Shown here in pieces: positions 369-21,587 of a stretch of DNA of 22,705 nt. A model generated the notes under the pieces. That model was given only the letters and a program-made list of their open reading frames with translations, searched no databases and was not told the origin of the DNA. This DNA comes from Catajapyx aquilonaris (Eukaryota). A program made the position numbers and the translations under genes. Position 1 is the first letter of the stretch, and every line of letters starts with the position of its first letter. The stretch is taken from assembly GCA_000934665.2 (NCBI GenBank), contig KZ538309.1, positions 62,001-84,705 on the forward strand, written 5' to 3'.

Positions 369-765
369 ATGGAATCCAAGGTAAGTCATTTCAGCCATTT
401 AACTATGGTTTGCAATGATGAGTGATCAATGTTCTTAGTTACATATTTGGCATGTTCTTGTACAGATACTGCTGGTCCTCGTTGTGCTGGGAGTGGTGGC
501 GTGTGTGTCAGGAGGAGGCCACACCAACTACAAGTACGGGTTTTCCACAAAGGGCAAGTACGGGGCAGCCCAGGTGGAGGCTGGTGCAGATGACCACAAG
601 TGGGGTTTCTCAGTCAACAACCACCACAAGGATGGGGTCAGCTACATCAAGCAGAGTGGGGACAACACTCACCACGGAGGATTCGGAGGTGGAGTGGGTG
701 GGGGTGCTGGAGGTGCTGGAGGAATCGGGGGAGGGTTCGGAGGGGGATTTGGAGGGGGATTTTAA
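369..765 (+). CDS. Family A copy 1: secreted Gly/His-rich protein, 103 aa; exons 369-380, 466-765
   Basis: ATG GAA TCC AAG then gtaagt at 381; tacag acceptor ending 465; in-frame join gives signal peptide MESKILLVLVVLGVVACVSG; GGGF tail; AATAAA 812-817; five paralogs share the structure. Confidence 0.9.
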
Positions 766-1919
766 ATGAGTTTATGTACAATAATTACTTATTCCATTGA
801 TCATGGTTTAAAATAAAGACATCAGTTGTACAATCAATGCCATGTGTTTGTTGATTGAACTTAGACAATAAATGCGAGCAATTTAAGATTTAGGCACAGA
901 AATATTTTTTGAATATTCGCTAGGCTACCTTTTGGCTAGTGCACATTTGTGTGATGTTAAGAGGTCCTTATTCTGAATTACAAAATGACTCGAGATCAAT
1001 TTTATTGCTGATCTCCCAATATCCGAAGTGACTGAATTCGAAGTTTGCAACATTACATGTTAATTAAATAATTACTACTGGCACTGATTGGACCTGGCAG
1101 TAGTGATCCTCGTTGGTGTAGATGAAGGCAAACTTTCTCGAGATTCCTTCCTCTGGAGCCATATTCATTATATCCATTATATCATTATATGACCAGTCAC
1201 TAGTGGATCCATCATAATGGTCATTCAAGATGACCAGGTGAATGTACCTGGCCATCACTGGCAACCCCATAATGGGAACATGCCGTGATTGTGATTGTAT
1301 TGTATTGTAATATTTATTATTTAATATTTTATTCGCCTTGGAAAACATGGGTCACACCATACAAGACAGGGCACTGTTCTCAAATACCTTGTCCGATTGC
1401 TGCGGCTGTTGTTGGCATTATGCTACTAAATTTAAGCAGCTGCTATCAAAAGTAATAGCTACTAATATTAGGATGTGTGGACCCATCTGGTATCTGAAGT
1501 GCTGCAGAATATCCTGGCAGGTATATGTCACCATTTGCACAAGCCGGATAATTTTAATATTTATATAGGGTTTATTGGGAAAAGCAAAAAAATACAATAG
1601 TATATGTCATTACATCTGTGAACAATACACAGCATTACAAGGGCAGAAAAATGCAATTTTTTTGTTTTATTTACTTACTCTGATTTGGTGGTGTGGGGAT
1701 GAAACCTAATTTAAGGAAAAGAAATTACTACATACCAGTAAACATTTTTTTTAAACCTGGAAAACATGTTTTACCTCATTTTGAATTCATTACTGATTTG
1801 TGATCAACTGTTTTAAAACAATTCCTTCAGCGGTTACATAATTTCAATCCGAAATCTTAATAGACCATATAATAAACTATGCCTCGGTTATTTATGACCT
1901 AAATGTGACTCTCCCCATT

Positions 1920-3358
1920 CTAAAATTCATGTCTTGTCATGGAAAGCTGATAAATCTCATCCTGGATAATGTGGTTATCAAAATACAAAAAAAAGAGAAG
2001 CCTATTTAGAGCTATATCTTCACAATTACTTCTGGAGAAATTGAGTGTACAAACCCAGTAAAATCAATGCACTTCCCACCAGCACATGTAGAAGAATACA
2101 TTTCCAGCAATTTGAGTTTATCACATCCAGTGAGAAGGGCCACTAGGCCATCCTCATCGAATAAGACTCCCTGGAAAGAAATGCGGGTCAGCTGAGGACA
2201 GTTTGACCCCACTGCTGGGAGGCAATGGTCACCTAGGTAACAAATACCACGTATCTCAAGACTCTCAAGTTTTTGGACCACTTCCTTCGCAGAGAAAAAA
2301 GAGACAAACTCCACCGTGGCACTAATACGTATCTCTAAATTGAGACGGCGGATGTTTCGCAGGCTGCTCACACCCTCCTTCAGACAGCTGACATCACGTT
2401 GTAATGGTACAGTCAATTCTTCCAGAAGAACGCACCGGTTGAGGTGGAGGAGGCTCTCGGGGTGAACCAACCCATAAACAACAAGTTTCTGAAGAGCTGG
2501 TGCATCTCTACACACCAACTCCAACTCAAAGTCGGTGTTGCTTGAAAAATGATTCAGCGTAACGTCTCTTAGTCGAGGCCAATTCTTTCTGAGGGAACTG
2601 TCCGGACCAGTCCAGTTGAATTCACAACGATTAAGACTCAACTTCTCAAGCTTGGCACTGTTGGCGAAGATGTCAAAAACATGGCGGGTGTTCTCATCGA
2701 GACGGCTAAGATGAAGCCTTAGCTCCTTAATATTTTGGCACCTGCAAAAATATTTTAAAAATAAAACTACATCCCAAGCATTAAGTCAATCACAACTGAC
2801 CTAGAGGCCACACGCTCAAGTGTATCGCAATACCAAATGTTGCAATAATCTATGTCCAGCGATTCCAAGTTTGGAAACAATTCCGCAATGTGTATCAATA
2901 CTTCATCCGACTGCGAGTCCTCCATCCATTCGAGCAGTCGCACACTCTTGAGCTGCTTCATATGCTCCAGCAGCTTCTTGGCTCTCTCCACAGTCATCTG
3001 AAGTCCGCCCATCCTCACCTCCTTCCAAAGTGAAGAGTCCATCACCAACTCGCTCCACCTCCTGCAAACTGGGGCTACACCTTGCAGCAAGTCTCGTTTC
3101 GGCAAGTAGGCAAAAATCATGAGGAGTACTTCTTCCGGCATGCGAGGAACACGACCAACCTCAACAGCCTGAAACAAACCAACATTAAGTAAAGGCATAC
3201 TGGTAATAGCAATTTGGTACATGAGCATTTAGATATGTTTGGCAACAATTGCCTTTAAGCAGTACCAGTGGTTTTTCATTCGAATCTTGTTCCATTACCT
3301 GTGGTTCAGCCGGTTCAGCCTCCTTCCGCATCTTCTTCTTCTTCGGTTCACTGCTCAT
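1920..3358 (-). CDS. F-box/leucine-rich repeat (FBXL-type) protein, about 390-405 aa; exons 3358-3299 (or -3266), 3168-2801, 2741-2030, probable last exon 1961-1920
   Basis: F-box motif MPEEVLLMIFAYLPKRDLLQGVAPVCRRWSELVMDSSLW (about 3141-3025) followed by LRR-like units (FPNLESLDIDYC, CPQLTRISF, CDKLKLLEM); 59-nt intron 2800-2742 keeps frame; the 3' end is uncertain (unspliced stop at 2012). Confidence 0.85.
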
Positions 3359-3493
3359 CTCACCCACCTGCTTCCATCACACAATCAGATAATTATGCCG
3401 CCTAAATGGGCCTAATTATCCCCGGTAGTTATCTAATTAACCTAAACAGAAAGGACCGTACGACTCAGCAAGACTTTCGTCTGCAAAATGTTG

Positions 3494-3505
3494 GCCGCCA
3501 TATTG
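3494..3505 (-). promoter_or_regulatory. YY1/Pho-like site upstream of the F-box gene
   Basis: Minus strand CAATATGGCGGC resembles the YY1 consensus CAANATGGCGGC, about 140 nt upstream of the F-box ATG; motif match only. Confidence 0.3.
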
Positions 3506-3829
3506 GAACTACTCATTTTCCATCGCGCAGCTGTTATCAATAAGCAGTGACTTGATAGCCGTTCCTCCTTAAGAGCGAACGAGATATATTAGTTGTGATG
3601 GAATTTTTTCCCCCTCCTCCTTGCATTATAATAGGGTGAACAACACGTCATGTAAGACTCGTGTTCTCAATCTAATATGTGTAAAATTAATACTGGTAGC
3701 AACAAATTATATTCAATGTCGATTGTCCGCTATATACCAGTGCACCACTTTCTATCCGGCAATCGCTTGATTGCACATTATCAATTTCTTTTGCTGCCAG
3801 TCTCCGCCACATTTTGAAACAAATGCAGG

Positions 3830-3866
3830 TATAAAAGCTGTTTCTCTCCGAGATTTGATATCACTT
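3830..3866 (+). promoter_or_regulatory. Core promoter of gene A2
   Basis: TATAAAA 3830-3836, TCACTT 3861-3866. Confidence 0.75.
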
Positions 3867-3919
3867 CCTTCGGCACCTCCAGCAGAAGACATCTCTCACT
3901 CCAATCCAACCTATACGCC

Positions 3920-4318
3920 ATGGATTCCAAGGTAGGCCTGTTCATTCCAACCCAGAAGCCCCTTGTTTATTAACGTGGATATATTCTTGATTGCAACGTG
4001 CAGATACTGGTGGTCCTCGTTGTGCTGGGAGTGGTGGCGTGTGTGTCAGGAGGAGGTCACACCAACTACAAGTACGGGTTTTCCACAAAGGGCAAGTACG
4101 GGGCAGCCCAGGTGGAGGCTGGTGCAGATGACCACAAGTGGGGTTTCTCAGTCAACAACCACCACAAGGATGGGGTCAGCTACATCAAGCAGAGTGGGGA
4201 CAACACTCACCACGGAGGATTTGAGGGAGGATTCGGAGGTGGGGCTGGAGGGGCTGGAGGTGCTGGAGGAGTCGGAGGAGGGTTCGGATTCGGAGGAGGA
4301 TTTGGAGGGGGATTTTAA
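3920..4318 (+). CDS. Family A copy 2: secreted Gly/His-rich protein, 108 aa; exons 3920-3931, 4004-4318
   Basis: MDSK exon, GT-AG intron 3932-4003, frame continues into ORF 3998-4318; AATAAA 4362-4367. Confidence 0.9.
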
Positions 4319-6158
4319 ATAAGTTTATGTACAATTATTTATTCCATTGCTCATGGTTTAAAATAAAGACATCAATTATTGTACAATTATTGTCATGTGT
4401 TTGTTGACTGATATTAAGAAACAATAAATGCAAGCCATTTAAGGTTATGAATTTGAATTTGACTTATTGAGTACAGTAATATTCCTTGAATAGGCCCTAC
4501 TCGCTAACACCATCTTTAGGATGTAAGTGATGTCCAAGGTCCTTATTCTGAATTACGTTGCTTTGGGAAATGATAGAGGGATTCTAGGCAATCACTATGA
4601 GTTACGCAACATGAGTCTGCGACGACCGAGATAATTAGCAGTAAATAAAAAGTGCATTATTCCAGCTTATAGATTTCGGATACTGCTTACGACATTTCCA
4701 TCGCCTAGGCCATTCCCTGCTACACCCATGGCTGTAGGCTACACCTAACAAGATCGTAAATTAAAATAAAATTACATGGTAACACTTAAATTTAAATGAA
4801 AAAAAGGTAAGGTCGAGTGGAGGGACGCATACATGCCAGGATATTTTTCTGCGTTTGAAGCACATTATTTCGGTAACTATGCGTCGGAGACCCATGTTGG
4901 ATATACTCAAAGTGATCGCCTGTAACTCCTATATCATTTTCCAAAGCGACGCTACGGTAGGTTAAATTTCCGAACCCTGTATACAGTGACTTTCACATTT
5001 TTATAATTTCCTAGACATCACCGAAAACACACTATAAAACCTATCAAAAATACTATAAGCAACTCAAAAATAAGGGATGTTCCACTTGGATACGTTTGAA
5101 ACATAATCACACTCAATCTGCATAATAATGACACTGTTCTACAAAATAACACTTTTTCTCTTTTATGAAACTTTGAATAGTGATTCCTATTGTACCTTCT
5201 GCGCTGAATCCAAATATATGCTCAGAAGGTTTCTGTCAGGCACAGTCTTTGAGTTATATAGTGTTAAAATTTGGAGTGGTTTACTACAGGGACCTTTCCG
5301 AATCAAGTGAGCCTAAATGTGACCGTCTCGGATCTTGGTGAAAATAATCGCAGATGTACTTAATTATTCCTTAATGCTGCTTACAAAATTTCAGCCGTAT
5401 TGCGAAATACTATGATGAGGAAAGAAATCGCAAAAATCTGGAAATGGCTGAAAATGAGGTCTCTTTTGGATAATTTTTTTCGGTTAGTGGAAGTGGTCCA
5501 AACCCAATGAACATGTATATCAAAAGAAAGGGAAACACCAGGAAAATGCGGATATGGAATAGGTTATCCTCTAAAATGTAAAAATAAATTTTTATTGCAT
5601 TTCATTGGTCACTTGCTTAGTCACATGCCCAAGAATATTAGGACCCCGACAATTAGTGATGTATTTGCCGTACATCAGTCATATTTGGTGACACTAGTTG
5701 CGACCTTCGTAAGGTTCAGTATCTTACGTTTGAGGCCTGGCTCACGCAAGGTTCGCGATAAGATAATAGATATGTTTTGCAGCTATACCATTAATTTCAC
5801 TCTCTACAAAAAAAATCTTTTGGTCTCTCTGAAGATATGAATGGTGGTTCTTATATAGTACTTTTCGCCCTGATTACAAATCTGCACTTAGAATTTGGCT
5901 GTCAGGCATAGGTTGGTGATTGGACGTTTTAAACCCCTGCATTTGTCACAAAATATGAGCCATGGCGGCAACAGGAGGCCGAAGGAACACTATTCGGACA
6001 CCATGTCTTTGTACGTGTATCAATATTATTAGATAATAACCATGAGTTGCCCCTATACCAGTGCACCACTTTCTATCAGGCCTCATGGCAATCGCTTGAT
6101 TGCACAGTATCAATTTCTTTTGCTGCCAGTCTCCGCCACATTTTGAAACAAATGCAGG

Positions 6159-6195
6159 TATAAAAGCTGTTTCTCTCCAATATTTGATATCACTT
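6159..6195 (+). promoter_or_regulatory. Core promoter of gene A3
   Basis: TATAAAA 6159-6165, TCACTT 6190-6195. Confidence 0.75.
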
Positions 6196-6246: not shown

Positions 6247-6622
6247 ATGGATTCTAAGGTACTGTTCATTATTCCAACCCAAGTTCCCCTTGTTTATTAA
6301 CATGGATTTTCTTGATTGCAACGTGCAGATACTGCTGTTCCTCGTTGTGCTGGGAGTGGTGGCGTGTGTGTCAGGAGGAGGTCACACCAACTACAAGTAC
6401 GGGTTTTCCACAAAGGGCAAGTACGGGGCAGCCCAGGTGGAGGCTGGTGCAGATGACCACAAGTGGGGTTTCTCAGTCAACAACCACCACAAGGATGGGG
6501 TCAGCTACATCAAGCAGAGTGGGGACAACACTCACCACGGAGGATCCGAGGGAGGGTTCGGAGGTGGGGCTGGAGGTGCTGGAGGCGTCGGGGGAGGGTT
6601 TGGGTTCGGAGGAGGGTTTTAA
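6247..6622 (+). CDS. Family A copy 3: secreted Gly/His-rich protein, 101 aa; exons 6247-6258, 6329-6622
   Basis: MDSK exon, GT-AG intron 6259-6328, frame continues into ORF 6290-6622; AATAAA 6666-6671. Confidence 0.9.
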
Positions 6623-6808: not shown

Positions 6809-7812
6809 CAGGGTGGACGGAAAGTTTCGGACCCCCCACGTTTTTAAACCCTACTTTTCACAGCGTCTTTTCACATCTTTTAAAAGTCCACAAGCAGTTC
6901 TAATGTACACTATCTTTTGAAGCATAATCTTGAGAACATCTGAGCACCTTCGCTCTCGCAATTCCATTAATAACGTCGCCTCTGTGACTCATCTAAACAT
7001 CATATCTGTTTTGCGTTCATTTTTCTTGTTGCCTTGGAGGACTCCTGGTCATATTCTGCGTCAGATAAGGTTTTTATGTCCCTTTTCCATAAGTTCCCCT
7101 TCATGCAAATGTTGTGAACTCACTCCTAACCTTACTTTCCTCATTGGTCCATAACCTGGTCCAATAAAAATTTGAAAAGGAATGCATTAAATGGCGGTCC
7201 CGGATGCATTACTTTCGAATTCTCACATTGGTACCATCACATTTGTCTCCACTTTTATTTTAAAATAATTTTTTGGTGCGAAGGGACGTGAAAGAAAGGA
7301 TGTGTCATGTTGATTAATTTACCAAGGTAGGACTGTTTCCTGTCCTTTCCCACCAAAAAATTATTTTAAAGTAAAAATGGAGACAAATGTGATGGTACCA
7401 ATTCGAAAGCAATGCATCCGGGTCCGCCATTTCATGCATTCCTTTTCAAATTTTTATTGGACCAGGTGATGGACCAATGCGACAAATAAGGTCAGGAGTG
7501 AGTTCACAACATTTGCATGAAGGGGAACTCATGGAAAAGGGTCATAAAATCCTTATCTGATGCAGAATATGACCAGGTGTCCTCCAAGGCAACAAGCAAA
7601 ATAAACGCAAAACAGATAGGATGTTTAGATGAGTCACAGAGGCGAAGTTATATTGCGAGAGCGAAGGTGCTCAGATGTTCTCAAGATTATGCTTCAAAAG
7701 ATAGTGTACATTAGAACTGCTTGTGGACTTTTAAAATATGTTAAAAGACGCTGTGAAAAGTAGGGTTAAAAAACCTGGGGGGGGGGGGGTCAGAAACTTT
7801 CCGTCCACCCTG
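6809..7812. mobile_element. Non-autonomous foldback DNA transposon (Tc1/mariner-type ends), 1004 bp
   Basis: Starts CAGGGTGGACGGAAAGTTTC, ends GAAACTTTCCGTCCACCCTG, with TA on both sides (6807-6808, 7813-7814); arms about 6809-7287 and 7342-7812 are imperfect reverse complements; no transposase ORF. Confidence 0.85.
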
Positions 7813-8346: not shown

Positions 8347-8359
8347 NNNNNNNNNNNNN
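8347..8359. other. Assembly gap (13 N) after a poly-C tract
   Basis: Run of N preceded by a C-rich homopolymer at about 8325-8346. Confidence 0.98.
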
Positions 8360-8781: not shown

Positions 8782-9012
8782 TCCTAAGGTCAATCTTACT
8801 GAACCAGAATAGGGCACCTCGTAGGTTGGAAAAATAGTGATAAGTACGATACTGCACCAGTACAAAAATGCTGTGGATTGCATACTATTTCTATGAACAA
8901 TCATCAGTTTCTTCATCTGGTACTCGGCCGTACGCCCCTCTCCCAGGCCATAATGCTCGCCTGAATGCACACTCTCAATTTCTTATGCTGCCATTCTCCG
9001 CCCCACCAATCA

Positions 9013-9048
9013 TATAAAAACACACGATCTATTGGTCTGATATCACTT
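9013..9048 (+). promoter_or_regulatory. Core promoter of gene A4
   Basis: TATAAAA 9013-9019, TCACTT 9043-9048. Confidence 0.7.
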
Positions 9049-9104
9049 CACTCAAGCTCACTGTACAGCAGACAGACAGAGTTCCTCCTGGTCTTATCAA
9101 CACC

Positions 9105-9512
9105 ATGGATTCCAAGGTAATCACTAATTTCATTGCAATCCGAGAATTCAGTGATATTAACTAGGATATTCTTGATTGCAACATGCAGATACTGCTGGTC
9201 CTCGTTGTGATGGGCGTGGTGTCGTGTGTGTCAGCCATAGGTCACACCAACTACAAGTACGGGTATGCCATCAAGGGCAAGTATGGGGCAGCCCAGGTGG
9301 AGGCAGGTGCAGATGACCACCATTATGGTTTCTCGGTGAACAACCACCACATGGACGGTGTGAGCTACATCAAGCAGAGTGGGGACAACACTCACCACGG
9401 AGGATTTGAGGGAGGATTCGGAGGAGGGGCCGGTGGTGCTGGAGGTGCTGGAGGGGCTGGTGGTGTGGGTGGGGGATTTGGGTTTGGAGGAGGATTTGGA
9501 GGGGGATTTTAA
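9105..9512 (+). CDS. Family A copy 4 (divergent core): secreted Gly/His-rich protein, 111 aa; exons 9105-9116, 9189-9512
   Basis: MDSK exon, GT-AG intron 9117-9188, ORF 9183-9512; AATAAA 9555-9560. Confidence 0.9.
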
Positions 9513-10167
9513 ATGCGTTTATGTACAATTATTTATCCGAAAGAAGAAGCTTGAAATAAACCAGCAAACCCCAAATATGTGTTGTAATTACTTCAGACCA
9601 TCCAGTTGGTTCTGAAGTTATGTCAGTCACACTTCAATATATTGCTCAACATTCCTTCAGTCAAATGGCATGGTAACCCACCAAGGAAATTAGCTCCCAT
9701 TATTTTAACGCCGACTCACTCCAACTCGTAGATCAACCACACTAACTGTTTTTTGATTGATTAAATTATTCCTGCTGTGCCTTTCCCTTAACCAAGTGTT
9801 TCGGAGAGAATAATTAGACAGCAATATCTGATAGCCTATCGGGTCCGTTAAGGTCGACTAATCAGGACATTAGCCTACTTTAATTCATTAATATCTCATG
9901 CGGCGTAATCGACCATTCAGATGTGGCCATACGAAACAGGGCAACATGGTCGTTGTAATGTTAGGATTTTGAATGAGGAATTCAAAGTCATTGGCTGCTT
10001 AGTGATATTCAGCCTTAGCCAAATCATAGTGGACTACAGAAACTATGCATAATTTAATTTATTAAAAACAAATTTAAAAAACAATCTATACAACAAGTCA
10101 CAAGAGATTTGGGGAGATGACTTCCGTCATACTCTCTGAATTCCATCTACAGACACTTTTCTTCTAA

Positions 10168-10938
10168 CTAGTAGTGTCCACCATATGAACCGTGGTCACC
10201 CTCGAAGGAGAATCCTTCCTCTTCGTGTCCAGAATGCTCCTCGACTTCTTCGTGCTTCTCCTCCTTCTTCTCCTCCTTCACGAAGTAAGGCACCTTCTGG
10301 ATGATGGTGTATGGCACCTTCTTCACCACCTGGATCTTGTGCACCACTGGCACCTTGTGGAACACCGGAACCTTGTGTACCACTGGGACGTGCTTCACAT
10401 CTGGCACCTTCACCACGTAGGGGATCTTGTGCACCTCCGGCACCTTCACTATCACGTGCTTGATTATCTTCTTCGGCTCAGGAGCTTCCTATAATATAAC
10501 ATGCAATACAAAATAATAATGTAATTTAATAATGAGTAGTTGTGTACTTACGTGTGATTCATGCTCGACCTCGTGTCCATAGTCCTTGACCTCGTGTCCA
10601 TAGTCCTTGACCTCGTGTCCATAGTCTTGGACCTCGTGTCCATAGTCCTCCTTCTCTTCCTCCTGTTCGTGACCGTGGCCTCCTCCCCCGGACACCTTGG
10701 CATACCCGAACCCCTTCTCCTCAACATACCCACCTTTCTTCTCGTGACCCTTCCTCATGATGGACAGTCCATGCTCGTAACTATACTTGCTCCCAGCCTG
10801 GCTCCATCCAGCCAGTCCAAGAAGTAGGAAGGCACACACAACGGCCTTAAAAAGTATGACATATTTTCACATTTATGTTTGAACTACTTGACTATTATTC
10901 CTGGAGTCAACAAAAGGTATCCTTACAAAATTGGCCAT
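10168..10938 (-). CDS. Family B copy 1: secreted His/Glu/Val/Lys/Pro-rich protein, 208 aa; exons 10938-10927, 10845-10552, 10488-10168
   Basis: MANF then gtaagg; two phase-0 GT-AG introns join ORFs 10489-10839 and 10168-10455; signal peptide MANFAVVCAFLLLGLAGWSQA; minus-strand AATAAA at 10058-10063. Confidence 0.9.
10279..10446 (-). repeat. Degenerate 18-bp coding repeat (KVPxxH/K hexapeptide) in B1; also present in B2 and B3
   Basis: KVPEVH KIPYVV KVPDVK HVPVVH KVPVFH KVPVVH KIQVVK KVPYTIIQ KVPYFV. Confidence 0.85.
10564..10647 (-). repeat. 4 x 21-bp coding tandem repeat (DYGHEV[QKE])
   Basis: Plus-strand unit (c/t)t(c/t/g)gacctcgtgtccatagtc repeated four times. Confidence 0.95.
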
Positions 10939-10988
10939 AATGATATCTAGTGCTTGTGGAGATGTGGCACTGTTGCAGACCGAGTCCA

Positions 10989-11026
10989 AACTGATGACCT
11001 CCTGCTGCCCAACTGCCCTTTTTATA
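10989..11026 (-). promoter_or_regulatory. Core promoter of gene B1
   Basis: Minus strand TATAAAA 11026-11020, TCAGTT 10994-10989; the same spacing occurs in B2 and B3. Confidence 0.75.
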
Positions 11027-11622
11027 CTCGCCATTACTTCACTGTACTGTGTGATTAAAATATTTGCCATGGTTCTACATAAGAAAGTAGCCATAAATGC
11101 ATTTTCACTTCCTCACATGCAGTATTTGCCTCCTTGCATGAAAAACTTTTACAAACTTTCTCGCACGTGCACAAGGGATATCCGTCCTCTGAACGGTTCA
11201 GTTGCTGCGATGTTAATTAATAATGTGTGTAACAGACTGTGTAATAATGGAGATTTATCTCCTGTCATATCCTAAGCTAAAATTAATTGTCCAATTAATT
11301 TCAAATCTTGTATCACATATTATTACAAAATGTAATTAAAACACATAATTACCCTCGACGAAAATATTTTGAAACTCAACACTCTTTACTTACGTAATTG
11401 GTAACCTAAGATTTGACTGCGTAATTAAGGAAAATAATTGCCTCTCTGGTAACTACTGATAATGTTAGTTTGCCGACAAAAAGAGCCTCTTCCACCTTAT
11501 CGAGTAACCTTAGAGATACATTTGAAACGTATCCGCTCTTGGATTATGAGGATTAAAGTTTGAGGGACATACGCAAGGATCCGTGGCGCCTCAGTAATAT
11601 TGCAAGTTGCCATCAATTTGCA

Positions 11623-14600
11623 ATGGGATTTATTCGCACAGCCACCTGCCTCTTTCTGACTCTAGGAACTGGTAAGTTCAATATTTGTAAAGATTATGCC
11701 ACACAGTCACAATGATTATGTTTCAGTACTATCAGCCTATATGGAAAATAGTGCGTGGGAATGTTTAATATCCAGCACCACTCAACCGATAGTTATTCCT
11801 TTCAATAGGAACTCTATTGACTACTTGCTAATAGGAACTGCTAAGGCCAAGTGTGTCAGTAAAGGTAACGGATGCTTAGACTAAAATTATGGTGCGTATT
11901 TAATAAGACATTTTCTGTTCTGTCAGATGCAAAAATTTCAGCCTGGTCACCAGGTCAGTGCAACGCAGCTGATTTAGACACCTATTCAGAGGGCGCAGTG
12001 GATGTGCTGAAACTAGTTACATTTCTGTAAGAGCGCAAGTATTACTGACACTATGCAAACAACTAAAAATGGTTTGACATGATTGTATTATTTATCAATC
12101 TCATGTGTTCGTTACAGTTGTCAAGGCTTGAACAAGTGTGAGATAGACCAAAACAATGCCGAGCTTGCAGATTTAGTGATATGTAAAAGTACTCAAACAC
12201 TAATGCTGGGAATCGTGTACTTGACATCACCATATGTGACTGATTGTGGAGAGGGTCAAATATTAAGAAGCGCCAGTTTTGGTGTGGGATGTGTTCATAC
12301 GACTAACGTGGAGAATCTAGATAAAGCGGCTTCGAAATGCAATGACTTTGACGGAAAATTAATATCAATGGTGGTAGCACAGAACAAAAATGAATTTATG
12401 GAAGGTTTGATGAAACTACCGTTAATGAAACACTGCTTCGGTTGCTACTTTTGGGTCAGAGGCACTGGAATAACGCCTCGGAAACTGACTGGCTTGTCAA
12501 ATTGTCCAGGAGTCTCTGTCGTTATTAATAAACCAGATTATTGGAACCTCAATACACCAAATCCATTGGCAGAACAGGTCGGACTTTGCATCGCTGCACC
12601 CAAGTGCAAGAAGGCTTACTGTGGTTATGATCCACCTCCGACTGAATCTACAACCCCAACAACAAAGCCAACAACTACGACAGTACCAACTACCACAACA
12701 ACCACGGTTGCACCTACAACTACAGCTGTGTCTACAACTACATCTACAAAAACGTCAACAAAGTCCACAACAACACACCAAAAACCAGCGACAAGTTCGA
12801 CAACTCACGGGTCCAAGTCAACAGCAACTTCTTCAACCACTTCTTCAACAACTTCTTCAACAACTGCTTCAACCACTTCTTCAACAACTCCTTCAACGAC
12901 TTCTTCAACAACTGCTTCAACCACTTCTTCAACAACTCCTTCAACGACTTCTTCAACAACTGCTTCAACCACTTCTTCAACCACTGCTTCAACCACTACC
13001 GAAAATGTCTCAATCAAGAACTGCCCTGCGATGGAGTTCCAAGGCATATGGCCTGAAACAAGAGCAGGCTCAGAGGCGGTACAAAACTGCAGCAATTGCT
13101 CAGGGTTGGCAACATGGAGATGTGACCTGAACGGAAATTGGGAAGGCTTCCCTGACCTAACGTGAGTCATTGCTATTGTTGCTGCAAAATCACTGCTAAT
13201 TGTTACTTTCCAGGAACTGTACTCTTTTTGCGAACATTTGGAAATACGGTTTCAACCACTTGAACCACGACGACTCTCCAGCGAAAGTACTGGAGCACAT
13301 TGTCACACAAATACGCAAACGAGGTGCAAAATTTCAGGCAGGAGATGTACACAATGCTGTGGATATACTAAGTGTGTCTATCACACTTCAGGAAAATAAA
13401 TCCGCCGAATGCATGATGACCCAAGAGTTACCCAACTGCCAGACTCATATCCAGAGTTACGCTTCTTCAGCAGTTAATTTGACAAATGAAGCTTTGGGTG
13501 ACCCTTACTCATGGCTGACCAATTCCAAGTTCAAAGAAGAGGCATCAAAACTATTTGAAACAATAGATCAAATTGGGTTTCAAGTCACAAACATGCTCAT
13601 TACACATAAGTTTTCAACAAACCTGATAGGTAAGTTAGTGACAAGCTGCTAATGGGCAAGAGACGGTTAGTTAACATCTGAATCTATTTGATTAGATATG
13701 AAATCAACTGCGTTCAATAAGACCACTGCAATTTCCAAATCTCGATACAAGTTTGCTGGAGGCTCTTCTATTCGCCTTCCAGTTGAGGCTAGGAGAGCTG
13801 CTACATATGACGGAATTTGGATGGCAAATCTTGTTACATACAGCAATATGCACAACATTTTAGGAAACAATTTAAGGTGAGTTAATACCTACTTTTCAGA
13901 CACTTGTTAAACACTGTTGGCTTCAACAGGAACCTGAGATTCGAGGATGAAACCAGCTTGATACGAGGTTTTGTGAACTGCAAAATGGTGGGAATCACAC
14001 TAGGAAATCATACTGATGGAGTAAAATTTAGGGACGAAAGTGTGCGCTTGCATTTGGAGCATTTATTATCATTAGACAAGTACAATATAAGTAATATAAC
14101 GTGCGTCTTTTGGGACGAGGACCAACATGACTGGAGCACCAAGGGATGCAAACTGATGGAAACTCACAGCTCCTACTCCATCTGTGAATGTGACCATCTC
14201 ACAAACCTGGCTCTTCTTGTGGACTACGGTGGTGTCACAGGAAACCAACAGGTCATCACATATATTACTGTCATAGGCTGCAGCATGTCCATCGTTTGCC
14301 TCTTGCTGGCCCTTGGGATCTTCTTTGCTGTCAGAAGCGTAGAAAACCTCAGGATCTTCATCCATAGTCATCTCTGCTTCTCTTTGCTTGTGGCTCAAAT
14401 GACGTTGATAGCAGGGGTTGATCCTACCGGAAATGACCTAGGCTGCAAGATTGCGGCGGTGACCATTCACTTCTTCTTTCTGGTTGCTTTCAGCTGGATG
14501 ATGGTCGAAGGGTATCAAATTTATCTCATGCTTGTTGTGGTGAGTTGATCATACGAGTCTCTTAGGTACTGGAATTACTGGAGTGTTTCCTTCAGGTGTT

Positions 14601-15559
14601 TCTGACAAAACCAACTCCAAAGTGGACAATGATGTTAGTAGGATATGGCGGACCTGCGATTATTGTTACGGTGTCTGCGATTGTCCGCTGGGATGGATAT
14701 GGAACTAGTAATTAGTGAGTGACAAAATATACCTATTGTTGTTTTATTGATTAGGAAGATGCAATGCGAATCATATTTTCAGTTGCTGGCTGACCAGAGA
14801 TAATGGTTTAATTTGGGCATTTTTAGGCCCAGTTGTAGCAGTTATTCTGGTAAGAAATACTCCCTATTAATGTTTAGTTATCAGGTCACTAGTTCATCAT
14901 GTTTTAGTTCAACACTGGTGTCCTTGCCATCGCCTTAAGAAAAGCACACAGAGCAGTGAAATCTTTGCCTGGAAGAACTACTAGAAGCGCACGTGAATCC
15001 CGAGCCTGGATGAAAGGATGTGCTTCAATATCAGTCATTTTAGGCCTCACCTGGGCCATTGGGGTCTTCCTTTATCCTGGCGGTAATATTAAAATGTACT
15101 ACCTTCATTGTAAACATTTGACTCTAACAGTAAGTGTCTATTTGCTTCAGAATCCAAGGAATTAACAGCAGCGGTGGAAATCTGTTTTGCCATACTTAAT
15201 TCCCTCCAAGGCGTCTTCATTCTTCTGTTTCATTGCATACTAAAAGCAGATGTGAGACAAGCTTTGGGCAGGAAACTTCAGTGGAACACGTACTGGCATT
15301 CTGTAAGTGCAGCGGTGACCTCATCCGGTAAAGTGCATCGGGTCAAACCCACAACAATGTTTGTTTCAGAGAAGTACGGTGGGAGTATCTGGAGAAGTGA
15401 CCAGTTCAAAAAATCATGCAGATCCGGACAAACTTTTTTACGTGCGGCAGAGGTAGTTTGGAAGCCACTATATGAAAGTTTTGCGTTAATTGACTGCTCA
15501 ACAGACCAGAATGGTATAGGATCATGACCGAGACGAGAAAATTCTCAGCAGACTTTTAG
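11623..15559 (+). CDS. Adhesion GPCR, latrophilin/Cirl-like, about 1060-1090 aa; exons 11623-11671, 11727-11864, 11927-12026, 12118-13161, 13214-13629, 13696-13876, 13930-14539, 14596-14714, 14783-14849, 14908-15082, then 15151-15527 or 15151-15302, 15370-15452, 15505-15559
   Basis: All joins are GT-AG and phase-compatible; signal peptide MGFIRTATCLFLTLGTVLSA; HormR motif (WPETRAG..C..SGLATWRC..GNWEGFPDLTNC); GPS CVFWD..WSTKGC..ICECDHLTNLALLV (14102-14221); family-B 7TM motifs (HFFFLVAFSWMMVEG, YGTSNYCWL, LGLTW, NSLQGVFILLFHC); C-terminal splicing is uncertain. Confidence 0.92.
12830..12997 (+). repeat. 14 x 12-bp coding repeat ([SAP]STT) in the mucin-like stalk of the GPCR
   Basis: Unit (t/g/c)cttcaac(c/a/g)act; 48-bp higher-order unit SSTT ASTT SSTT PSTT. 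Confidence 0.95.
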
Positions 15560-16098
15560 TGCACATCTGATATTATGATAATTATGAGTGTGATGGATAG
15601 AGATTACATCATGTAATCTTGTTACACATGAGTATCGACGTTCAGGAAATCTCCGCGATCCTCTCTACGGATGCAATATGTCCTGCCAGTGTATCAGTGC
15701 CCAGTCACCATGGAAATATATGGTCTGATAATAAGGATAATCCTTGTCTGACGCAAATGATGCCTTGTTGACTGTAGGATGTGTTCAAGGGTGTCAAGCT
15801 TCTCGTCTAAACACCCGCAATATTTTTACAGACAACAAACTGTAGGCTGGTGTGGATCATCATGCATAACATTCCAAAGGGCTTATGAAAAGGTTACATC
15901 CATTGCTGCATACGTCACTACTTTCATCAAAAGTGATATTGGTCATTGCTTTATTTCACGACCATCCCTTTACTATTATCCGAAATTCCAATCAATTGCA
16001 CACACAGTACGCCTTTCTACCAGGTCATGATCGCTTGAACGCACATTCCCTTTGCCCTGATGCCAGTCTCCACCACATTATTTTGAAATCAATCTTGG

Positions 16099-16135
16099 TA
16101 TAAAAACAGCTGATTCTAAAGGGTTGATATCAGTT
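16099..16135 (+). promoter_or_regulatory. Core promoter of gene A5
   Basis: TATAAAA 16099-16105, TCAGTT 16130-16135. Confidence 0.75.
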
Positions 16136-16188
16136 CACTCGAGTTCTGGAATATACAGGCAGACAACTCTAATCCAACCAAAGACATC

Positions 16189-16618
16189 ATGGATTCAAAG
16201 GTAAATGATTTCAAGGGCAATAATTTTTTATTTCTTTCCAATAATTGATTGGGATTGACACGTTTGTTTATTGCAATGAAAACAGATACTGCTGTTCCTC
16301 GTTGTGCTGGGAGTGGTGTCGTGTGTCTCAGCCATAGGTCACATCAACTACAAGTACGGGTTTTCCACAAAGGGCAAGTATGGGGCAGCCCAGGTGGAGG
16401 CTGGTGCAGATGACCACAAGTGGGGTTTCTCAGTCAACAACCACCACAAGGATGGGGTCAGCTACATCAAGCAGAGTGGGGACAACACTCACCACGGAGG
16501 ATTCGGGGGAGGGTTCGGAGGTGGGGCTGGAGGGGCCGGGGGAGCTGGTGGTGCAGGAGGGGCTGGAGGAATCGGGGGAGGGTTCGGGTTTGGAGGGGGA
16601 TTCGGAGGGGGATTTTAA
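16189..16618 (+). CDS. Family A copy 5: secreted Gly/His-rich protein, 114 aa; exons 16189-16200, 16286-16618
   Basis: MDSK exon, GT-AG intron 16201-16285, in frame with ORF 16304-16618; AATAAA 16662-16667. Confidence 0.9.
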
Positions 16619-17186
16619 ATAAATGTTCATGCAGTGATTTATTTGAGATACTACTGTTTGAAATAAAGCCATCAATGACGGAATATATTGTGTCAATGAT
16701 CATTTGCAGCTGAGCACAAAATTGGTAACCTAATACGTTCAACATTTTTTAAATTAACGGCGGAGTCTCTCGTTGTCTCGTATCATTATTTGCAATTTTC
16801 TCAACTAATATGGATGTCATGGCGTTTATACAAACCGTATTACAGTAGAGATAATGTGCAGTGTAATTTGGCGTCAGAACGTAATGCATGCGCAACTGAA
16901 AAGAAACTTTCTCCACAGAATGAGCAGTGAGTGTGGAAGTTAATATACGAATAAGTTGCGGTTATAGACTCGAAAGGGAAAGATCATGCAATGTAGGGGT
17001 TGTTATTGTGCTGTAATGAACACGTGGAAAAAATGCACAAATATGCACAATTTAATTTATTAAAAACAGATAATAAAACTTAATTTGTATACATTTCCCA
17101 ACAGAAATGTGGGGGACAATACGAGTGTGGAATAAGTTCCAGTCATCTTTGGCTCTTGCACATTCCTCTTGTAGCTTTTCTTCTGC

Positions 17187-17889
17187 CTAGTGGTGTCCAC
17201 CATATGAACCGTGGTCACCCTCGAAGGAGAAGCCCTTCTCTTCGTGTCCAGAATGCTCCTCGACTTCTTCGTGCTTCTCCTCTTTCTCTTCCTCCTTGAC
17301 AAAGTAAGGCACCTTCTGGATGATGGTGTATGGCACCTTCTTCACCACGGGGACCTTGTGCACCACTGGCACCTTGTGATACACGGGCACCTTGTGGACC
17401 ACTGGGACGTGCTTCACATCTGGCACCTTCACCACATAGGAGATCTTATGCACCTCCGGCACCTTCACTATCACGTACTTGATTATCTTCTTCGGCTCAG
17501 GAGCTTCCTAATATCACATGAAATACAAAATAATATCGTAATTCAATTTAATAAGAAGTACCGGTAGTTTTGTACTTACGTGTGATTCATGCTCGACCTC
17601 GTGTCCATAGTCCTCCTCCTCCTGGTGGTGACCGTGACCTCCTCCCCCGGACACCTTGGCATACCCGAACCCATTCTCCTCCACAAACCCACCTTTCTTC
17701 TCGTGACCCTTCCTCATGATGGACAGCCCATGCTCGTAACTATACTTGCTCCCAGCCTGGCTCCATCCAGCCAGACACAGAAGCAGGAAGGCACACACAA
17801 CGGTCTGCAAAAAGTATCACACTTTTAATAGAATATTCTTATGGTTATGAGCTGCTTTATAAATAATTAACCCTTACTAAATTGGCCAT
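17187..17889 (-). CDS. Family B copy 2, 185 aa; exons 17889-17878, 17804-17580, 17507-17187
   Basis: MANL exon, two phase-0 GT-AG introns at the same positions as in B1; minus-strand AATAAA 17056-17061. Confidence 0.9.
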
Positions 17890-17935
17890 GTTATAGTTGG
17901 AAATAAGTGTGGTCTTTGTTGGGAGGCTGTTGTAA

Positions 17936-17973
17936 AACTGATGACTTATGCCTAGTTCTTCGTGCTTTTTATA
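17936..17973 (-). promoter_or_regulatory. Core promoter of gene B2
   Basis: Minus strand TATAAAA 17973-17967, TCAGTT 17941-17936. Confidence 0.75.
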
Positions 17974-18809
17974 CCAGTAAACGCCACGCTAGACCACTGC
18001 ACCAAAGTCGTAAAGTTAAATTCCGCAGTAAAAACTATGAAAGCAGGCAAAATATAAGCAACATTTTTAGAGACGGAAAATGCTTGCAAAAATGTAAAGA
18101 GAGTGGACAGCTTGACACAAAATTGCAACAGTTAAAGCAGGTCCTCATTTATTAACAACACTTACAGTATTACTATCTAGGATTAATAGAAGAAGCCACT
18201 GTATTTTATAGCTTTGCTGCACCTCTGATAAGAGTTTAATACACGAGGCAAGCATTATAATAATGCCACAATAATGTTACGATAATGTTACTCATATATT
18301 TTAATATGAATAGAGAAACAATACGACACATTTACACAAAATGTGTTATTTCCGTTTGCCTTAATTACAATATGGGATTGAATAGTATTAATTTTGATAA
18401 TGTTGGATCAAGATATACAGAGGACGACACGTTTTTACCAGAAAGATAAACTAAATTATCAGCTCTTTTAGGTGTAGCAGTGGGAATTATGAACACATGC
18501 ACCAACCTATAATGTCATTATTAAAAAGTTGGTCCAGTTGCAGACGTTCTTCTGGTATCAATGCACCATACAAATATTGCTTTATATTTAGTTATAATAT
18601 ACGCTCACTGTTACAATGTATTATAGTTACACAAGAGTATCGTTGTTCATGTAGGAAATCTTCAGCGATTCTCTCCACGGATACAATATGTCTTGCGGAT
18701 GTAGTTCAGTCACCACGGAAATAACTAATATGGTCTTGACGCAAATGATGTCGCTCTTGACTGTAGGATGTATTCAAGGGGGTAGGCTTCTCACCTACAC
18801 ACCCGCTAT

Positions 18810-19166
18810 AAAAATAGGCAATAAAATTGCCGAAAACTATTCTTCCTCTGGGTGATGAGATTAAAAGTAAGAAACTAGTCCATAGGTGGGGGTTGGTTCG
18901 TGTCATGGCCGGATGTGTGATAATTAAATTTAATTCAAAACATTCGTGCTTTGGGGCTGGGAAGAATTAGGCAGATATCGCTTTTATGTACTCCGACTCT
19001 CATACTCTGCCTAATTCTTCCCAGATCCAAAGCACGAATGTTTTGAATTAAATTTAATTATCACACATCCGGCCATGACACGAACCAACCCCCACCTATA
19101 CCTATACCTTACTTTTCATCTCACCCAGAGGAAGAATAGCTTTCTGCAGTTTTATTGCTCATTTTC
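18810..19166. repeat. Long inverted repeat (arms about 160 bp, 30-nt loop)
   Basis: 18810-18975 is the imperfect reverse complement of 19006-19166 (e.g. ggtgggggttggttcgtgtcatggccggatgtgtgataattaaatttaattcaaaacattcgtgctttgg matches exactly). Confidence 0.92.
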
Positions 19167-19660
19167 ATTAAGTTCTTTTCATCATCATAAAGTAATGTAA
19201 AGAAATTTTAGGTTTTTTAAATGACACGACGCGACGTCGTGCGTATTTCTGTGGTACAGAAAGAGAGCGAGAGCACAAATCTGACACTATCGAAATCGCC
19301 TCGTAACTCAAAAAATAGAGTTTTTTTCTTCAAAAAACGGTAGGCAGAAGGGCACCTCCTGGGAACATTGCGGTTCTTATCACACATTGTATGACCCTCT
19401 ACGACGCACCGTTTAGGCTGTACCCTTGTCAGAGTAACGACACTTTTTTGAACTTTGACCCCGGCTAGTGACACCGGTAATGACCCTAGTTGTTGTTTAT
19501 CTACCTAAATTTGATTACGGGAGTTAGAGGAGTGTAAATCTTGTTTCCGATTTGAAATCGGTTAACCCGTACGCGAGTTATGAGGTCGGCAAATTAACAT
19601 TGGGAGCGTAGCGGTTACATACTGTTCCTTTTCTGCGTGACCTATAATGGTTATTGCCTA
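18815..19660. mobile_element. Probable non-autonomous element inserted in duplication unit 2
   Basis: Absent from the paralogous position in unit 1; bounded by the 10-bp inverted repeat TAGGCAATAA / TTATTGCCTA; contains the long hairpin; no credible ORF; class not assigned. Confidence 0.55.
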
Positions 19661-19819
19661 AAACATGCTTTATTTCACGACCATCCCATTACTATATTAT
19701 CCGAAATTCCAATCGATTGCACACACGGTACACCTTTCTACCAGGTCACGCTCGCTTGAACCCACATTCCCTTTGCCCTGATGCCAGTCTCCACCACATT
19801 ATTTTGAAATCATTCTTGG

Positions 19820-19856
19820 TATAAAAACAGCTGATTCTAAAGGGTTGATATCAGTT
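19820..19856 (+). promoter_or_regulatory. Core promoter of gene A6
   Basis: TATAAAA 19820-19826, TCAGTT 19851-19856. Confidence 0.75.
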
Positions 19857-19909
19857 CACTCGAGTTCTGGAATATACAGGCAGACAACTCTAATCCAACC
19901 AAAGACATC

Positions 19910-20330
19910 ATGGATTCAAAGGTAAATGATTTCAAGGGCAATAATTTTTTATTTCTTTCCAATTGATTGGGATTGACACGTTTGTTTATTGCAATGAAAA
20001 CAGATACTGGTGGTCCTCGTTGTGCTGGGCGTGGTGTCGTGTGTCTCAGCCATAGGTCACATCAACTACAAGTACGGGTTTTCCACAAAGGGCAAGTACG
20101 GGGCAGCCCAGGTGGAGGCTGGTGCAGATGACCACAAGTGGGGTTTCTCAGTCAACAACCACCACAAGGATGGGGTCAGCTACATCAAGCAGAGTGGGGA
20201 CAACACTCACCACGGAGGATTCGAGGGAGGGTTCGGAGGTGGGGCTGGAGGGGCTGGTGGTGGTGCTGGTGGTGCTGGGGGAGTCGGGGGAGGGTTCGGG
20301 TTTGGAGGGGGATTCGGAGGGGGATTTTAA
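19910..20330 (+). CDS. Family A copy 6: secreted Gly/His-rich protein, 112 aa; exons 19910-19921, 20004-20330
   Basis: MDSK exon, GT-AG intron 19922-20003, in frame with ORF 20010-20330; AATAAA 20374-20379. Confidence 0.9.
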
Positions 20331-20884
20331 ATAAATGTACATGCAATTATTTATTTGAGATACTACTGCTTGAAATAAAGCCATGACGTAATATATTGTG
20401 TCAATGATCATTTCCGCAGCAGAGCACAAAATTGGTAACCTAATACGTTAAACATTTTTATTATTATTTAACGGTGCAGCCTATCGTAGCATTATTTCAG
20501 TGTAATGTTCTCAACTTATATGTCTTAGCGTTTAAACAGAACCTATTACAGTAGAGATAATGTGCAGTGTAATTTGGCGTCAGAACGTAATGCATGCGCA
20601 ACTGAAAAGAAACTTTCTCCACAGAATGAGCAGTGAGTGTGGAAGTTTATATAAGTTGTTGCTATAGACTTGAAAGCGAAAGATAATGAAATGTATGGGT
20701 TGTTATTGTGGTGTAATGAAGACGTGGAAAAAATGCAAAAATATGCACAATTTCATTTATTAAAAACAGATAATAAAACGTAATTTTTACAACTCCCAGC
20801 AGAAATGTGGGGGACAATACAAGTGTGGAATAAGTTCCATTCATCTTTGGCTCTTGCACATTCCTCTTGTAGATTTTCTTCTAC

Positions 20885-21587
20885 CTAGTGGTGCCCGCCA
20901 TATGAACCGTGGTCACCCTCGAAGGAGAATCCCTTCTCTTCGTGTCCAGAATGCTCCTCGACTTCTTCGTGCTTCTCCTCTTTCTCTTCCTCCTTGACGA
21001 AGTAAGGCACCTTCTGTATGATGGTGTATGGCACCTTCTTCACCACGGGGACCTTGTGCACCACAGGCACCTTGTGATACACGGGCACCTTGTGGACCAC
21101 TGGGACGTGCTTCACATCTGGCACCTTGACCACATAGGAGATCTTGTGCACCTCCGGCACCTTCACTATCACGTACTTGATTATCTTCTTCGGCTCAGGA
21201 GCTTCCTAATATCTCATGAAATACAAAATAATATCGTAATTCAATTTAATAAGAAGTACCGGTAGTTTTGTACTTACGTGTGATTCATGCTCGACCTCTT
21301 GCCCATAGTCCTCCTTCTCCTGGTGGTGACCGTGACCTCCTCCCCCGGACACCTTGGCATACCCGAACCCATTCTCCTCCACATACCCACCTTTCTTCTC
21401 GTGACCCTTCCTCATGATGGACAGCCCATGCTCGTAACTATACTTGCTCCCAGCCTGGCTCCATCCAGCCAGACACAGAAGCAGGAAGGCACACAAAACG
21501 GTCTGCAAAAAGTATCACACTTCTAATAGAATATTCTTATGGTTATGAGCTGCTTTATAAATAACTAACCCTTACTAAATTGGCCAT
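20885..21587 (-). CDS. Family B copy 3, 185 aa; exons 21587-21576, 21502-21278, 21205-20885
   Basis: MANL exon, same intron positions as B2; minus-strand AATAAA 20756-20761. Confidence 0.9.

What the first reader, a model, noticed from the sequence alone, without database searches (positions are those of the whole stretch)
369..21587. Two-family cluster of unassigned secreted proteins: candidate two-component extracellular material
Seen: six A genes and three B genes, all with intact frames, signal peptides, TATA/Inr and polyA signals. Every B gene faces an A gene tail-to-tail with 554-655 nt between stops (A4-B1, A5-B2, A6-B3). The mature chains have no Cys and no recognisable Rebers-Riddiford chitin-binding consensus. 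Known: clustered, amplified low-complexity genes encode cuticle, chorion, silk and cement proteins, and Gly/His-rich proteins harden Nereis jaws and squid beaks. Inference: A and B are co-expressed at high dose and co-assemble into one structure (cuticle layer, eggshell or adhesive). A Gly-rich antimicrobial role for A (compare the GGGF repeats of armadillidin) is an alternative.
Basis: partly seen in the sequence, partly recalled or inferred. Interest (0 to 1): 0.8.

Follow-up and report, generated by a model that had tools for sequence, protein, structure and literature searches.

The report
Amplified orphan cuticle-type protein family
An arthropod gene cluster mixes copies of an undescribed family of small secreted glycine-tailed proteins with genes resembling a known class of insect cuticle proteins; both most likely help build the exoskeleton, and their pairing looks inherited from duplication rather than a sign of a two-part material.

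Summary
Observation confirmed: six A and three B genes, intact, secreted, tail-to-tail at 655, 568 and 554 nt. The host is an arthropod. A is not just low-complexity. It has a conserved 46-residue, probably beta-rich head plus a Gly tail, at 52 loci in this genome. It matches no Pfam family or PDB chain, and its only real hits among 1.84 billion proteins are two fragments. Sixteen of 32 close copies share a base-identical 135-nt head while flanks are about 57% alike, which points to gene conversion. B resembles insect CPLCP cuticle proteins in layout, but membership is not shown by sequence search. The two-component idea is weak. Only 5 of 45 assessable A loci face a B, one of them a decayed remnant. 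13 of 18 B-like loci have no A nearby. The pairs converge, share no promoter motif and trace to one duplicated adjacency. Best reading: two cuticle-protein families in one array. Expression is untested.

The parts
207..221 (+). A-family upstream motif (TCGCYTGAWYGCACA), copy at A1; other copies at 3763, 6092, 8957, 16031, 19752, each 56-68 nt before the TATA box
   Evidence: 13 of 15 exact genome matches lie upstream of A genes
369..765 (+). A1: exons 369-380 and 466-765, 103 aa; TATA 273, AATAAA 812
2012..3380 (-). F-box/LRR gene inserted between A1 and A2 (approximate limits); bystander
   Evidence: PF12937 E 2e-15, PF24758 E 5e-8
3920..4318 (+). A2: exons 3920-3931 and 4004-4318, 108 aa; TATA 3830, AATAAA 4362
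6247..6622 (+). A3: exons 6247-6258 and 6329-6622, 101 aa; TATA 6159, AATAAA 6666
9105..9512 (+). A4: exons 9105-9116 and 9189-9512, 111 aa; the only window copy with a diverged head (7 synonymous and 6 amino-acid-changing codons of 52 against A1)
10168..10938 (-). B1: exons 10938-10927, 10845-10552, 10488-10168, 208 aa; TATA 11026; N-terminal module, His/Glu/Tyr heptad repeats, Lys-Val-Pro hexad block, acidic His tail
11800..15600 (+). Adhesion GPCR gene (Thr/Ser stalk, HRM, GPS, 7TM; approximate limits). A 69%-identical paralogue lies just upstream of A1 and marks a segmental duplication of GPCR plus A
16189..16618 (+). A5: exons 16189-16200 and 16286-16618, 114 aa; TATA 16099, AATAAA 16662
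17187..17889 (-). B2: exons 17889-17878, 17804-17580, 17507-17187, 185 aa; TATA 17973
19910..20330 (+). A6: exons 19910-19921 and 20004-20330, 112 aa; TATA 19820, AATAAA 20374
20885..21587 (-). B3: exons 21587-21576, 21502-21278, 21205-20885, 185 aa; TATA 21671
15947..22268 (.). Recent tandem duplication (period about 3.7 kb) that made A5-B2 and A6-B3
   Evidence: 2675 nt at 91% identity

Best explanation
A and B are two separate families of non-R&R cuticular structural proteins that share one array. Shown: A is signal peptide + 46-aa Cys-free head with four alternating aromatic/aliphatic segments + a neutral Gly-rich tail that varies by subfamily (35 GGF-type, 10 GGY/GLG-type, 7 other among 52 loci). 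One subfamily was amplified and its head-coding DNA is homogenised. B is signal peptide + short N-module + His/Glu/Tyr spacer + about nine phased six-residue Lys-Val-Pro repeats + acidic His tail. Inferred: epidermal cells express both in a burst during cuticle deposition. A heads pack as small beta-sheets on chitin or on each other, and the Gly tails act as flexible filler. B forms extended strands, as proposed for CPLCP/articulin-like proteins. His, Tyr and Lys are then cross-linked by catechol quinones. Gene conversion keeps many identical templates, giving a high dose of one product. The tail-to-tail pairs descend from one old A-B adjacency.
For: Arthropod genome with 66 R&R matches and one Tweedle match. 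GGY-type A genes lie 1.2 kb (C567) and 2.3 kb (C9023) from R&R genes. Heads and B hexads are under purifying selection: pN 0.04-0.10 against pS 0.15-0.57 for the 11 diverged A heads, and pN 0.034-0.038 against pS 0.19-0.22 for B1 versus B2, B3 and C5359. Base-identical heads with unrelated introns repeat the pattern reported for Drosophila Ccp84Aa/Ab, where conversion homogenised the region round the R&R domain (PMC2793513, passages). B matches the layout and ends of BmorCPLCP1-3 (PMC8062583 supplement 3). The top Atlas lead for B is a cluster named 'Cuticular protein', Arthropoda, score 0.88, a lead only. His-rich cuticle protein cross-links with laccase and catechols (PMC8062583, passages). 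Pairing counts, the promoter motif and the duplication history argue against obligate partnership.
Against: No expression or proteomic data tie either family to epidermis. R&R neighbours were seen on only 2 of 23 A-bearing contigs (these two may be one cluster) and not beside the window's GGF subfamily. A has no characterised homologue. The AlphaFold2 model of the head is poor (pLDDT 48, three strands). B gave no hit to insect CPLCPs and has far fewer PV/PY pairs (6 per protein) than the 29 PV and 30 PY reported for two moth CPLCPs (PMC10138643, passages). All 4 intact members of the window-type B subfamily do face an A gene, and the orientation survived while the spacer lost all similarity (54%).
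Confidence: 0.6

Rival explanations
1. One reading: A and the window-type B are dedicated partners that are co-expressed and co-assemble into one material, perhaps docking through the similar first strand of their mature chains.
For: All 4 intact window-type B genes (3 here, 1 on C5359) and one remnant face an A gene. Both mature chains start with a similar Y-x-Y-x-(H/Y)-G-(F/Y/L)-x-I strand (hhalign 42% over 13 columns). Core promoters and 12-nt first exons are built alike.
Against: 40 of 45 assessable A loci have no B; 13 of 18 B-like loci have no A; the B beside the largest A array has decayed. The N-module is also kept in unpaired B genes on C71, C106 and C1774. The pairs are convergent and lack a shared upstream motif, unlike silkmoth chorion pairs (PMC4639761, passages). 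The pairs are not independent events.
Confidence: 0.12
2. A (with or without B) is a gland or follicle product (eggshell, glue, silk or spermatophore) rather than integument cuticle.
For: High copy number, gene conversion, a short first exon and a conserved domain with Gly-rich arms also describe chorion genes (PMC4639761, passages). Family A appears lineage-restricted.
Against: No head-to-head pairs. The chorion hexamer TCACGT occurs 8 times against 6.8 expected and not in these promoters. No Cys. Some A genes sit beside R&R genes. B resembles a cuticle class.
Confidence: 0.18
3. Variant of the best explanation: the A head is a deeply diverged piece of the R&R chitin-binding domain (its C-terminal hairpins) with one added strand.
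For: hhalign places A on the most conserved part of R&R. The score of 14.6 beats 60 of 60 column shuffles (max 13.5) and the reversed alignment (9.3). Cross-HMM means are 5.6 against 3.6 reversed and 2.1 shuffled.
Against: HH probability is only 2.6-7.7%. Column shuffles destroy strand periodicity, so they are a lenient control. The R&R Tyr and Asp positions are not kept, and 0 of 25 heads match the pattern. Pfam PF00379 was not hit by any of 25 members at E<=1.
Confidence: 0.2
4. A is a Gly-rich antimicrobial peptide family like armadillidin.
For: GGGF repeats, small secreted size and multicopy arrays.
Against: Armadillidins are Arg-rich linear peptides reported only from terrestrial isopods (PMC7017220, passages). 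Window A tails have net charge 0 or -1 and the mature chains contain no Arg. The tail is the variable part and the head the conserved part, with purifying selection and homogenisation rather than diversification.
Confidence: 0.07
5. The base-identical heads, and part of the copy number, are assembly artefacts (collapsed short repeats or both alleles kept).
For: The assembly is fragmented (20,583 contigs). Identical tracts among A1, A2, A3 and A6 are 158-207 nt, short enough to be mis-resolved. Some contigs look allelic (94-97% over 1.1-1.2 kb).
Against: Sixteen distinct head sequences coexist among 32 copies, several differing by only 1-2 bases from the common one, so the assembler did keep small differences. 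The same pattern is documented in finished fly genomes (PMC2793513).
Confidence: 0.08

Closest known systems
CPLCP cuticular proteins (BmorCPLCP1-3; Anopheles CPLCP; likened to protist articulins), for B
   Same: Signal peptide, Gly/His/Glu/Tyr-rich N-part, His-rich entry, Val/Pro/Lys/Tyr/His repeat block with KVP and PY units, and a Glu/His-rich end closing in a short Gly-His/Tyr tail; no Cys in the mature chain (PMC8062583 supplement 3). A B-like gene on C1286 carries the eight-residue KVPYPV-type units.
   Different: B is shorter, has a strict six-residue period with one Pro per unit and only 6 PV+PY pairs, and lacks the dibasic KRG site seen in the three Bombyx proteins. No sequence-search link was found.
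Gly-rich cuticular proteins (CPG) and conserved-domain low-complexity families (CPLCG, CPLCW, Tweedle), for A
   Same: Signal + conserved small domain + Gly-rich repeats (GGxG, GGY), multigene arrays (PMC12426002 and PMC10138643, passages), concerted evolution centred on the conserved domain (PMC2793513).
   Different: The A head hits no Pfam model. CPG has no conserved domain; CPLCG and CPLCW are described from Diptera and mosquitoes.
CPR family (Rebers-Riddiford, PF00379)
   Same: Similar size, aromatic alternating strands, Cys-free; weak alignment to the C-terminal half of RR-2; genomic neighbours on two contigs.
   Different: Consensus not met; HH probability under 8%.
Silkmoth chorion A/B gene pairs
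   Same: Two families in opposite-strand pairs, short first exon, gene conversion (PMC4639761).
   Different: Chorion pairs are head-to-head with a shared promoter and most genes are paired; here pairs are tail-to-tail and about one A in nine is paired.
Armadillidins
   Same: GGGF repeats in a secreted peptide.
   Different: Cationic and Arg-rich, no folded head, reported only from terrestrial isopods (PMC7017220).

Membership tests
CPLCP (B) | Secreted low-complexity protein rich in Pro, Val, Lys, Tyr | tested here: met
   Mature B1-B3: V 15-16%, K 13-14%, Y 6-7%, P 5-6%, H 11-12%; the repeat block is 92-93% V/P/K/Y/H/E/I
CPLCP (B) | High density of PV and PY pairs | tested here: inconclusive
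   6 pairs within about 60 residues, against 29 PV and 30 PY reported for two moth genes; no numeric threshold was found
CPLCP (B) | Sequence or profile match to named CPLCP members | tested here: inconclusive
   No hit at E<=0.001 among 78 candidates; one unrelated-looking hit among 8000 scored; both searches covered longer proteins only. Atlas lead 0.88. CutProtFam models were not available
CPLCP (B) | Recovered from cuticle, or expressed in epidermis | not testable with these tools
   needs proteomics or RNA
CPR / R&R (A and B) | Match to PF00379 or the G-x8-G-x6-Y-x-A consensus | tested here: not met
   0 of 25 A heads and 0 of 12 B blocks hit PF00379 at E<=1; pattern in 0 of 25 A against 12 of 19 R&R controls
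CPR / R&R (A) | Remote profile homology to the R&R domain | tested here: inconclusive
   HH probability 2.6-7.7%, above shuffled and reversed controls
CPG-type Gly-rich cuticular proteins (A) | Secreted, Gly-rich with GGxG/GGY repeats | tested here: met
   Mature A 33-38% Gly; 45 of 52 tails are GGF or GGY type. This is a compositional class, not a homology group
Tweedle, CPF/CPFL, CPLCA, CPCFC, CPAP (A and B) | Their Pfam domains or Cys motifs | tested here: not met
   No such Pfam hit; no Cys in mature chains
Chorion-type A/B pairs | Head-to-head pairs sharing a promoter; most genes paired | tested here: not met
   Tail-to-tail; 5 of 45 A loci paired; TCACGT at chance level
Armadillidin | Cationic Arg-rich linear Gly peptide | tested here: not met
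   No Arg in mature window A proteins, tail charge 0 or -1
Armadillidin | Antimicrobial activity | not testable with these tools
   needs a growth assay

The most novel reading that the evidence does not exclude
The A head is an undescribed extracellular-matrix domain, either a new chitin-binding or self-assembling beta module or a deeply diverged half of R&R. It was amplified to about 50 genes, close to the number of R&R matches in this genome, and forms a major cuticle component of an early-branching hexapod lineage. It docks on CPLCP-like B proteins through their shared first strand.
Probability: 0.15. Interest if true: 0.7.

Novelty: new variant of a known kind. Interest (0 to 1): 0.42.

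Why it matters
Cuticle protein families are defined mostly from winged insects. A family of about 50 genes with its own conserved domain and no database match would be a new building block, of a size close to the 66 R&R matches in this genome. It offers a small, Cys-free, easily expressed domain to test for chitin binding or self-assembly, and a test of whether R&R-like hairpins were reinvented or recycled. The domain-limited homogenisation would extend a pattern described in flies and mosquitoes to a distant arthropod. The two-component material that gave the finding its high first score is the least supported part.

Tried and rejected
RNA evidence: no RNA holder was listed for window 9000-11100; this says nothing about expression, and no reads could be laid. 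Complex prediction of A head with B N-module and B hexad block: no verdict, score 0.00, alignments not used, partner fold uncertain; not counted for or against binding. AlphaFold2: A head pLDDT 48, B exon 3 pLDDT 44; the fold search on the A model gave no match at E<=0.001 and is uninformative. A searches: Atlas no usable hit; word-index search of 108-2000 aa proteins 0 of 7896 candidates (34-107 aa proteins were not searched by that tool); PDB sequences 1 match at E 0.25. Of 3 hits in the 1.84-billion library, P0001 and P0003 are real A fragments, each on a 558-nt ENA contig, and P0002 is a repeat artefact. B searches; P0004 is an unrelated Lys/Val/Pro-biased protein. No 8- or 9-mer was shared by six or more promoters across A and B (the A1 promoter was empty in that test, so 8 of 9 were compared). 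No tRNA-like element in the window. Literature: five short A/B motifs in 0 papers (main texts only); no paper for cuticular protein + Diplura + Collembola + novel family + glycine-rich at 4 of 5 terms; two searches listed nothing on such a family, and passages of PMC6938034 and PMC13539456 had nothing relevant. Most subscription papers, including the original CPLC and CutProtFam papers, were not searchable, and supplements of unread papers could hold these proteins. A first RR-HMM check failed to parse and was redone. A tree of 33 distinct heads is mostly unresolved (20 of 30 inner branches open) and was not used for dating.


Full report
1. Observation. The nine genes are as described. A1-A6 have a 12-nt first exon, one GT-AG intron and an open second exon. 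B1-B3 have three exons on the minus strand. All nine have TATA, an initiator-like site 30-32 nt later and a hydrophobic leader, plus AATAAA downstream. Stop-to-stop spacers are 655, 568 and 554 nt. The mature chains lack Cys. An F-box/LRR gene and an adhesion GPCR gene interrupt the array.

2. Host. The 286-Mb genome holds 66 R&R matches and one Tweedle match, so it is an arthropod. It gave one weak odorant-binding-protein match, one Osiris-domain match and one weak 7tm_6 match whose C-terminus looks gustatory-type (that reading is recalled). This suggests an early-branching hexapod. These searches give lower bounds, so the placement is tentative.

3. Family A. A single-protein search gave 49 matches from 53 candidates. 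A profile run over the fetched stretches gave 52 loci on 23 contigs. A further intron-split relative was seen by eye on C473, so 52 may be an undercount; a few contigs may be alleles. All share a 46-residue head directly after the leader, with four segments of alternating aromatic or aliphatic residues and an invariant His. The tails differ: 35 GGF-type, 10 GGY/GLG-type, 7 other (one of the 7 reads through an assembly gap). The head matches nothing in Pfam (0 relevant families for 25 members), PDB sequences or the Atlas. In 1.84 billion representatives it finds 3 proteins: two fragments of an A gene, each on a 558-nt ENA contig, and one artefact. AlphaFold2 gives three strands at pLDDT 48, too low to trust. 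A is not a CPR by the defining tests. It does show a faint likeness to the C-terminal half of RR-2: HH probability 2.6-7.7%, above 60 of 60 column shuffles and one reversed control. I treat this as an open lead.

4. Concerted evolution. Within the window, the 156-nt head-coding region is identical in A1, A2, A3 and A6 and differs by one silent base in A5. Apart from the recent pairs A2/A3 and A5/A6, the introns of these five genes are 46-66% alike, against a random baseline of 49% (max 59%). Genome-wide, 16 of 32 close copies on six contigs share one 135-nt sequence. Their upstream 70-nt windows have a median identity of 57% (105 of 120 pairs measurable) and their downstream flanks 57%. Identical tracts among A1, A2, A3 and A6 span 158-207 nt inside exon 2. 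Diverged heads show purifying selection. Drosophila Ccp84Aa/Ab show the same domain-centred homogenisation, linked to coding repeats, with gene dosage offered as a possible benefit (PMC2793513, passages). An assembly artefact is not excluded.

5. Family B. Exon 3 carries about nine phased hexads with Lys, Val and Pro in fixed positions, shared by the 12 aligned paralogues. The genome search gave 20 matches from 37 candidates; 18 loci were recovered in the fetched stretches. Exon 2 carries a short module kept in six aligned genes. The overall layout parallels BmorCPLCP1-3, read in supplement 3 of PMC8062583. That paper finds CPLCPs among the most abundant scale proteins and cross-links a His-rich cuticle protein into films with laccase and catechols (passages). 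Reviews define CPLCP by Pro, Val, Lys and Tyr richness and PV/PY density (PMC12426002 and PMC10138643, passages). B meets the composition but has only 6 PV+PY pairs, and searches found no link to named members. The Atlas lead is 'Cuticular protein' at 0.88, below its confidence mark. So B works like a CPLCP; membership is unproven.

6. Is the pairing meaningful? Of 52 A loci, 7 were dropped for having under 1.5 kb of downstream sequence in view. Of the other 45, 5 face a B within 2 kb: three here, one on C5359 and a broken remnant in the 12-gene array on C771. Of 18 B-like loci, 13 have no A on the stretch fetched (one had only 19 nt downstream in view). These include the three closest intact paralogues. 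The pairs are not independent. A5-B2 and A6-B3 are a recent 3.7-kb tandem copy (91%), and C5359 is a third copy (87%). A GPCR paralogue and the A1 promoter repeat the GPCR-A5 arrangement upstream of the window (69% and 67%), which suggests one old GPCR-A-B unit (inference). The genes converge, whereas silkmoth chorion A/B pairs are head-to-head on a shared promoter (PMC4639761, passages). A 15-nt motif lies 56-68 nt before the TATA box of 6 of 6 A genes and 0 of 3 B genes; 13 of its 15 exact genome matches precede A genes. The motif was drawn from the A promoters, so its chance figure is circular; its absence from B is the informative part. For pairing: every intact window-type B faces an A, the orientation outlasted spacer similarity (54%), and both mature chains open with a similar strand (42% probability over 13 columns).

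7. Mechanism. Shown: gene structure, family sizes, selection, homogenisation, linkage history. Inferred: epidermal expression at the moult, beta-sheet heads with Gly tails as filler, extended B strands, and quinone cross-linking through His, Tyr and Lys. Support for cuticle is circumstantial: GGY-type A genes lie 1.2 and 2.3 kb from R&R genes on C567 and C9023, but only 2 of 23 A contigs show this. Eggshell or gland secretion remains possible. An antimicrobial role fits poorly: armadillidins are Arg-rich (PMC7017220, passages), while window A chains have no Arg and neutral tails. Expression and binding remain open.

8. Novelty. B is probably a short variant of a known class. A is an undescribed family as far as the searched databases and open literature show, but its design (leader, small conserved domain, Gly tail, arrays, conversion) is that of known cuticle families. 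Interspersed two-family cuticle arrays in mosquitoes (CPLCG with CPLCW) are recalled, not confirmed by a call. Earlier scan notes describe other orphan secreted clusters in this genome (unchecked) and none on these sequences. Verdict: new variant of a known kind, interest 0.42.

Noticed in passing
window 6832-7782: Large nested inverted repeat (arms of 131, 252 and 67 nt at 91-97%) between A3 and A4, like a non-autonomous DNA transposon.
   Followed up: partly
window 18882-19099: Near-perfect 94-nt inverted repeat with a 30-nt loop, in the spacer between B2 and A6.
   Followed up: no
window 11800-15600; L031 6030-9621; L094 1014-1631; L095 938-1564: Adhesion-GPCR-like genes flank three A clusters (C541 twice, C771, C5359), which suggests these contigs are pieces of one larger GPCR-plus-A region.
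   Followed up: partly
L031 4632-5393 (G000 C541, about 5 kb before the window): Secreted-looking ORF of Gly-Tyr-Glu-Gln/Lys-Pro-Ser-Tyr repeats, another low-complexity matrix-type gene in the same neighbourhood.
   Followed up: no
L099 1335-2253 (G000 C473): Remote A-like gene whose head is split by an intron and by a long Gly/His insert after the first strand; missed by the profile.
   Followed up: partly
L034 5105-6352 (G000 C473): A head fused to a 346-residue Arg/Glu/Pro/Ser repeat tail instead of a Gly tail.
   Followed up: no
L032 8597-8998 and L074 2-463 (G000 C567): Ala/Val/Pro/His-rich secreted protein with repeats faintly like the first half of the A head (E 0.15), lying between A and R&R genes.
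   Followed up: partly
L022 1216-1425 (G000 C771): Decayed B remnant, tail-to-tail with an A gene, with an interrupted last exon and no upstream exon found.
   Followed up: yes
window 10552-10640: B1 alone carries extra 21-nt heptad repeats (Asp-Tyr-Gly-His-Glu-Val-Lys type) that B2 and B3 lack.
   Followed up: no
window 8347-8359: Assembly gap (run of N) after a poly-C tract between A3 and A4.
   Followed up: no
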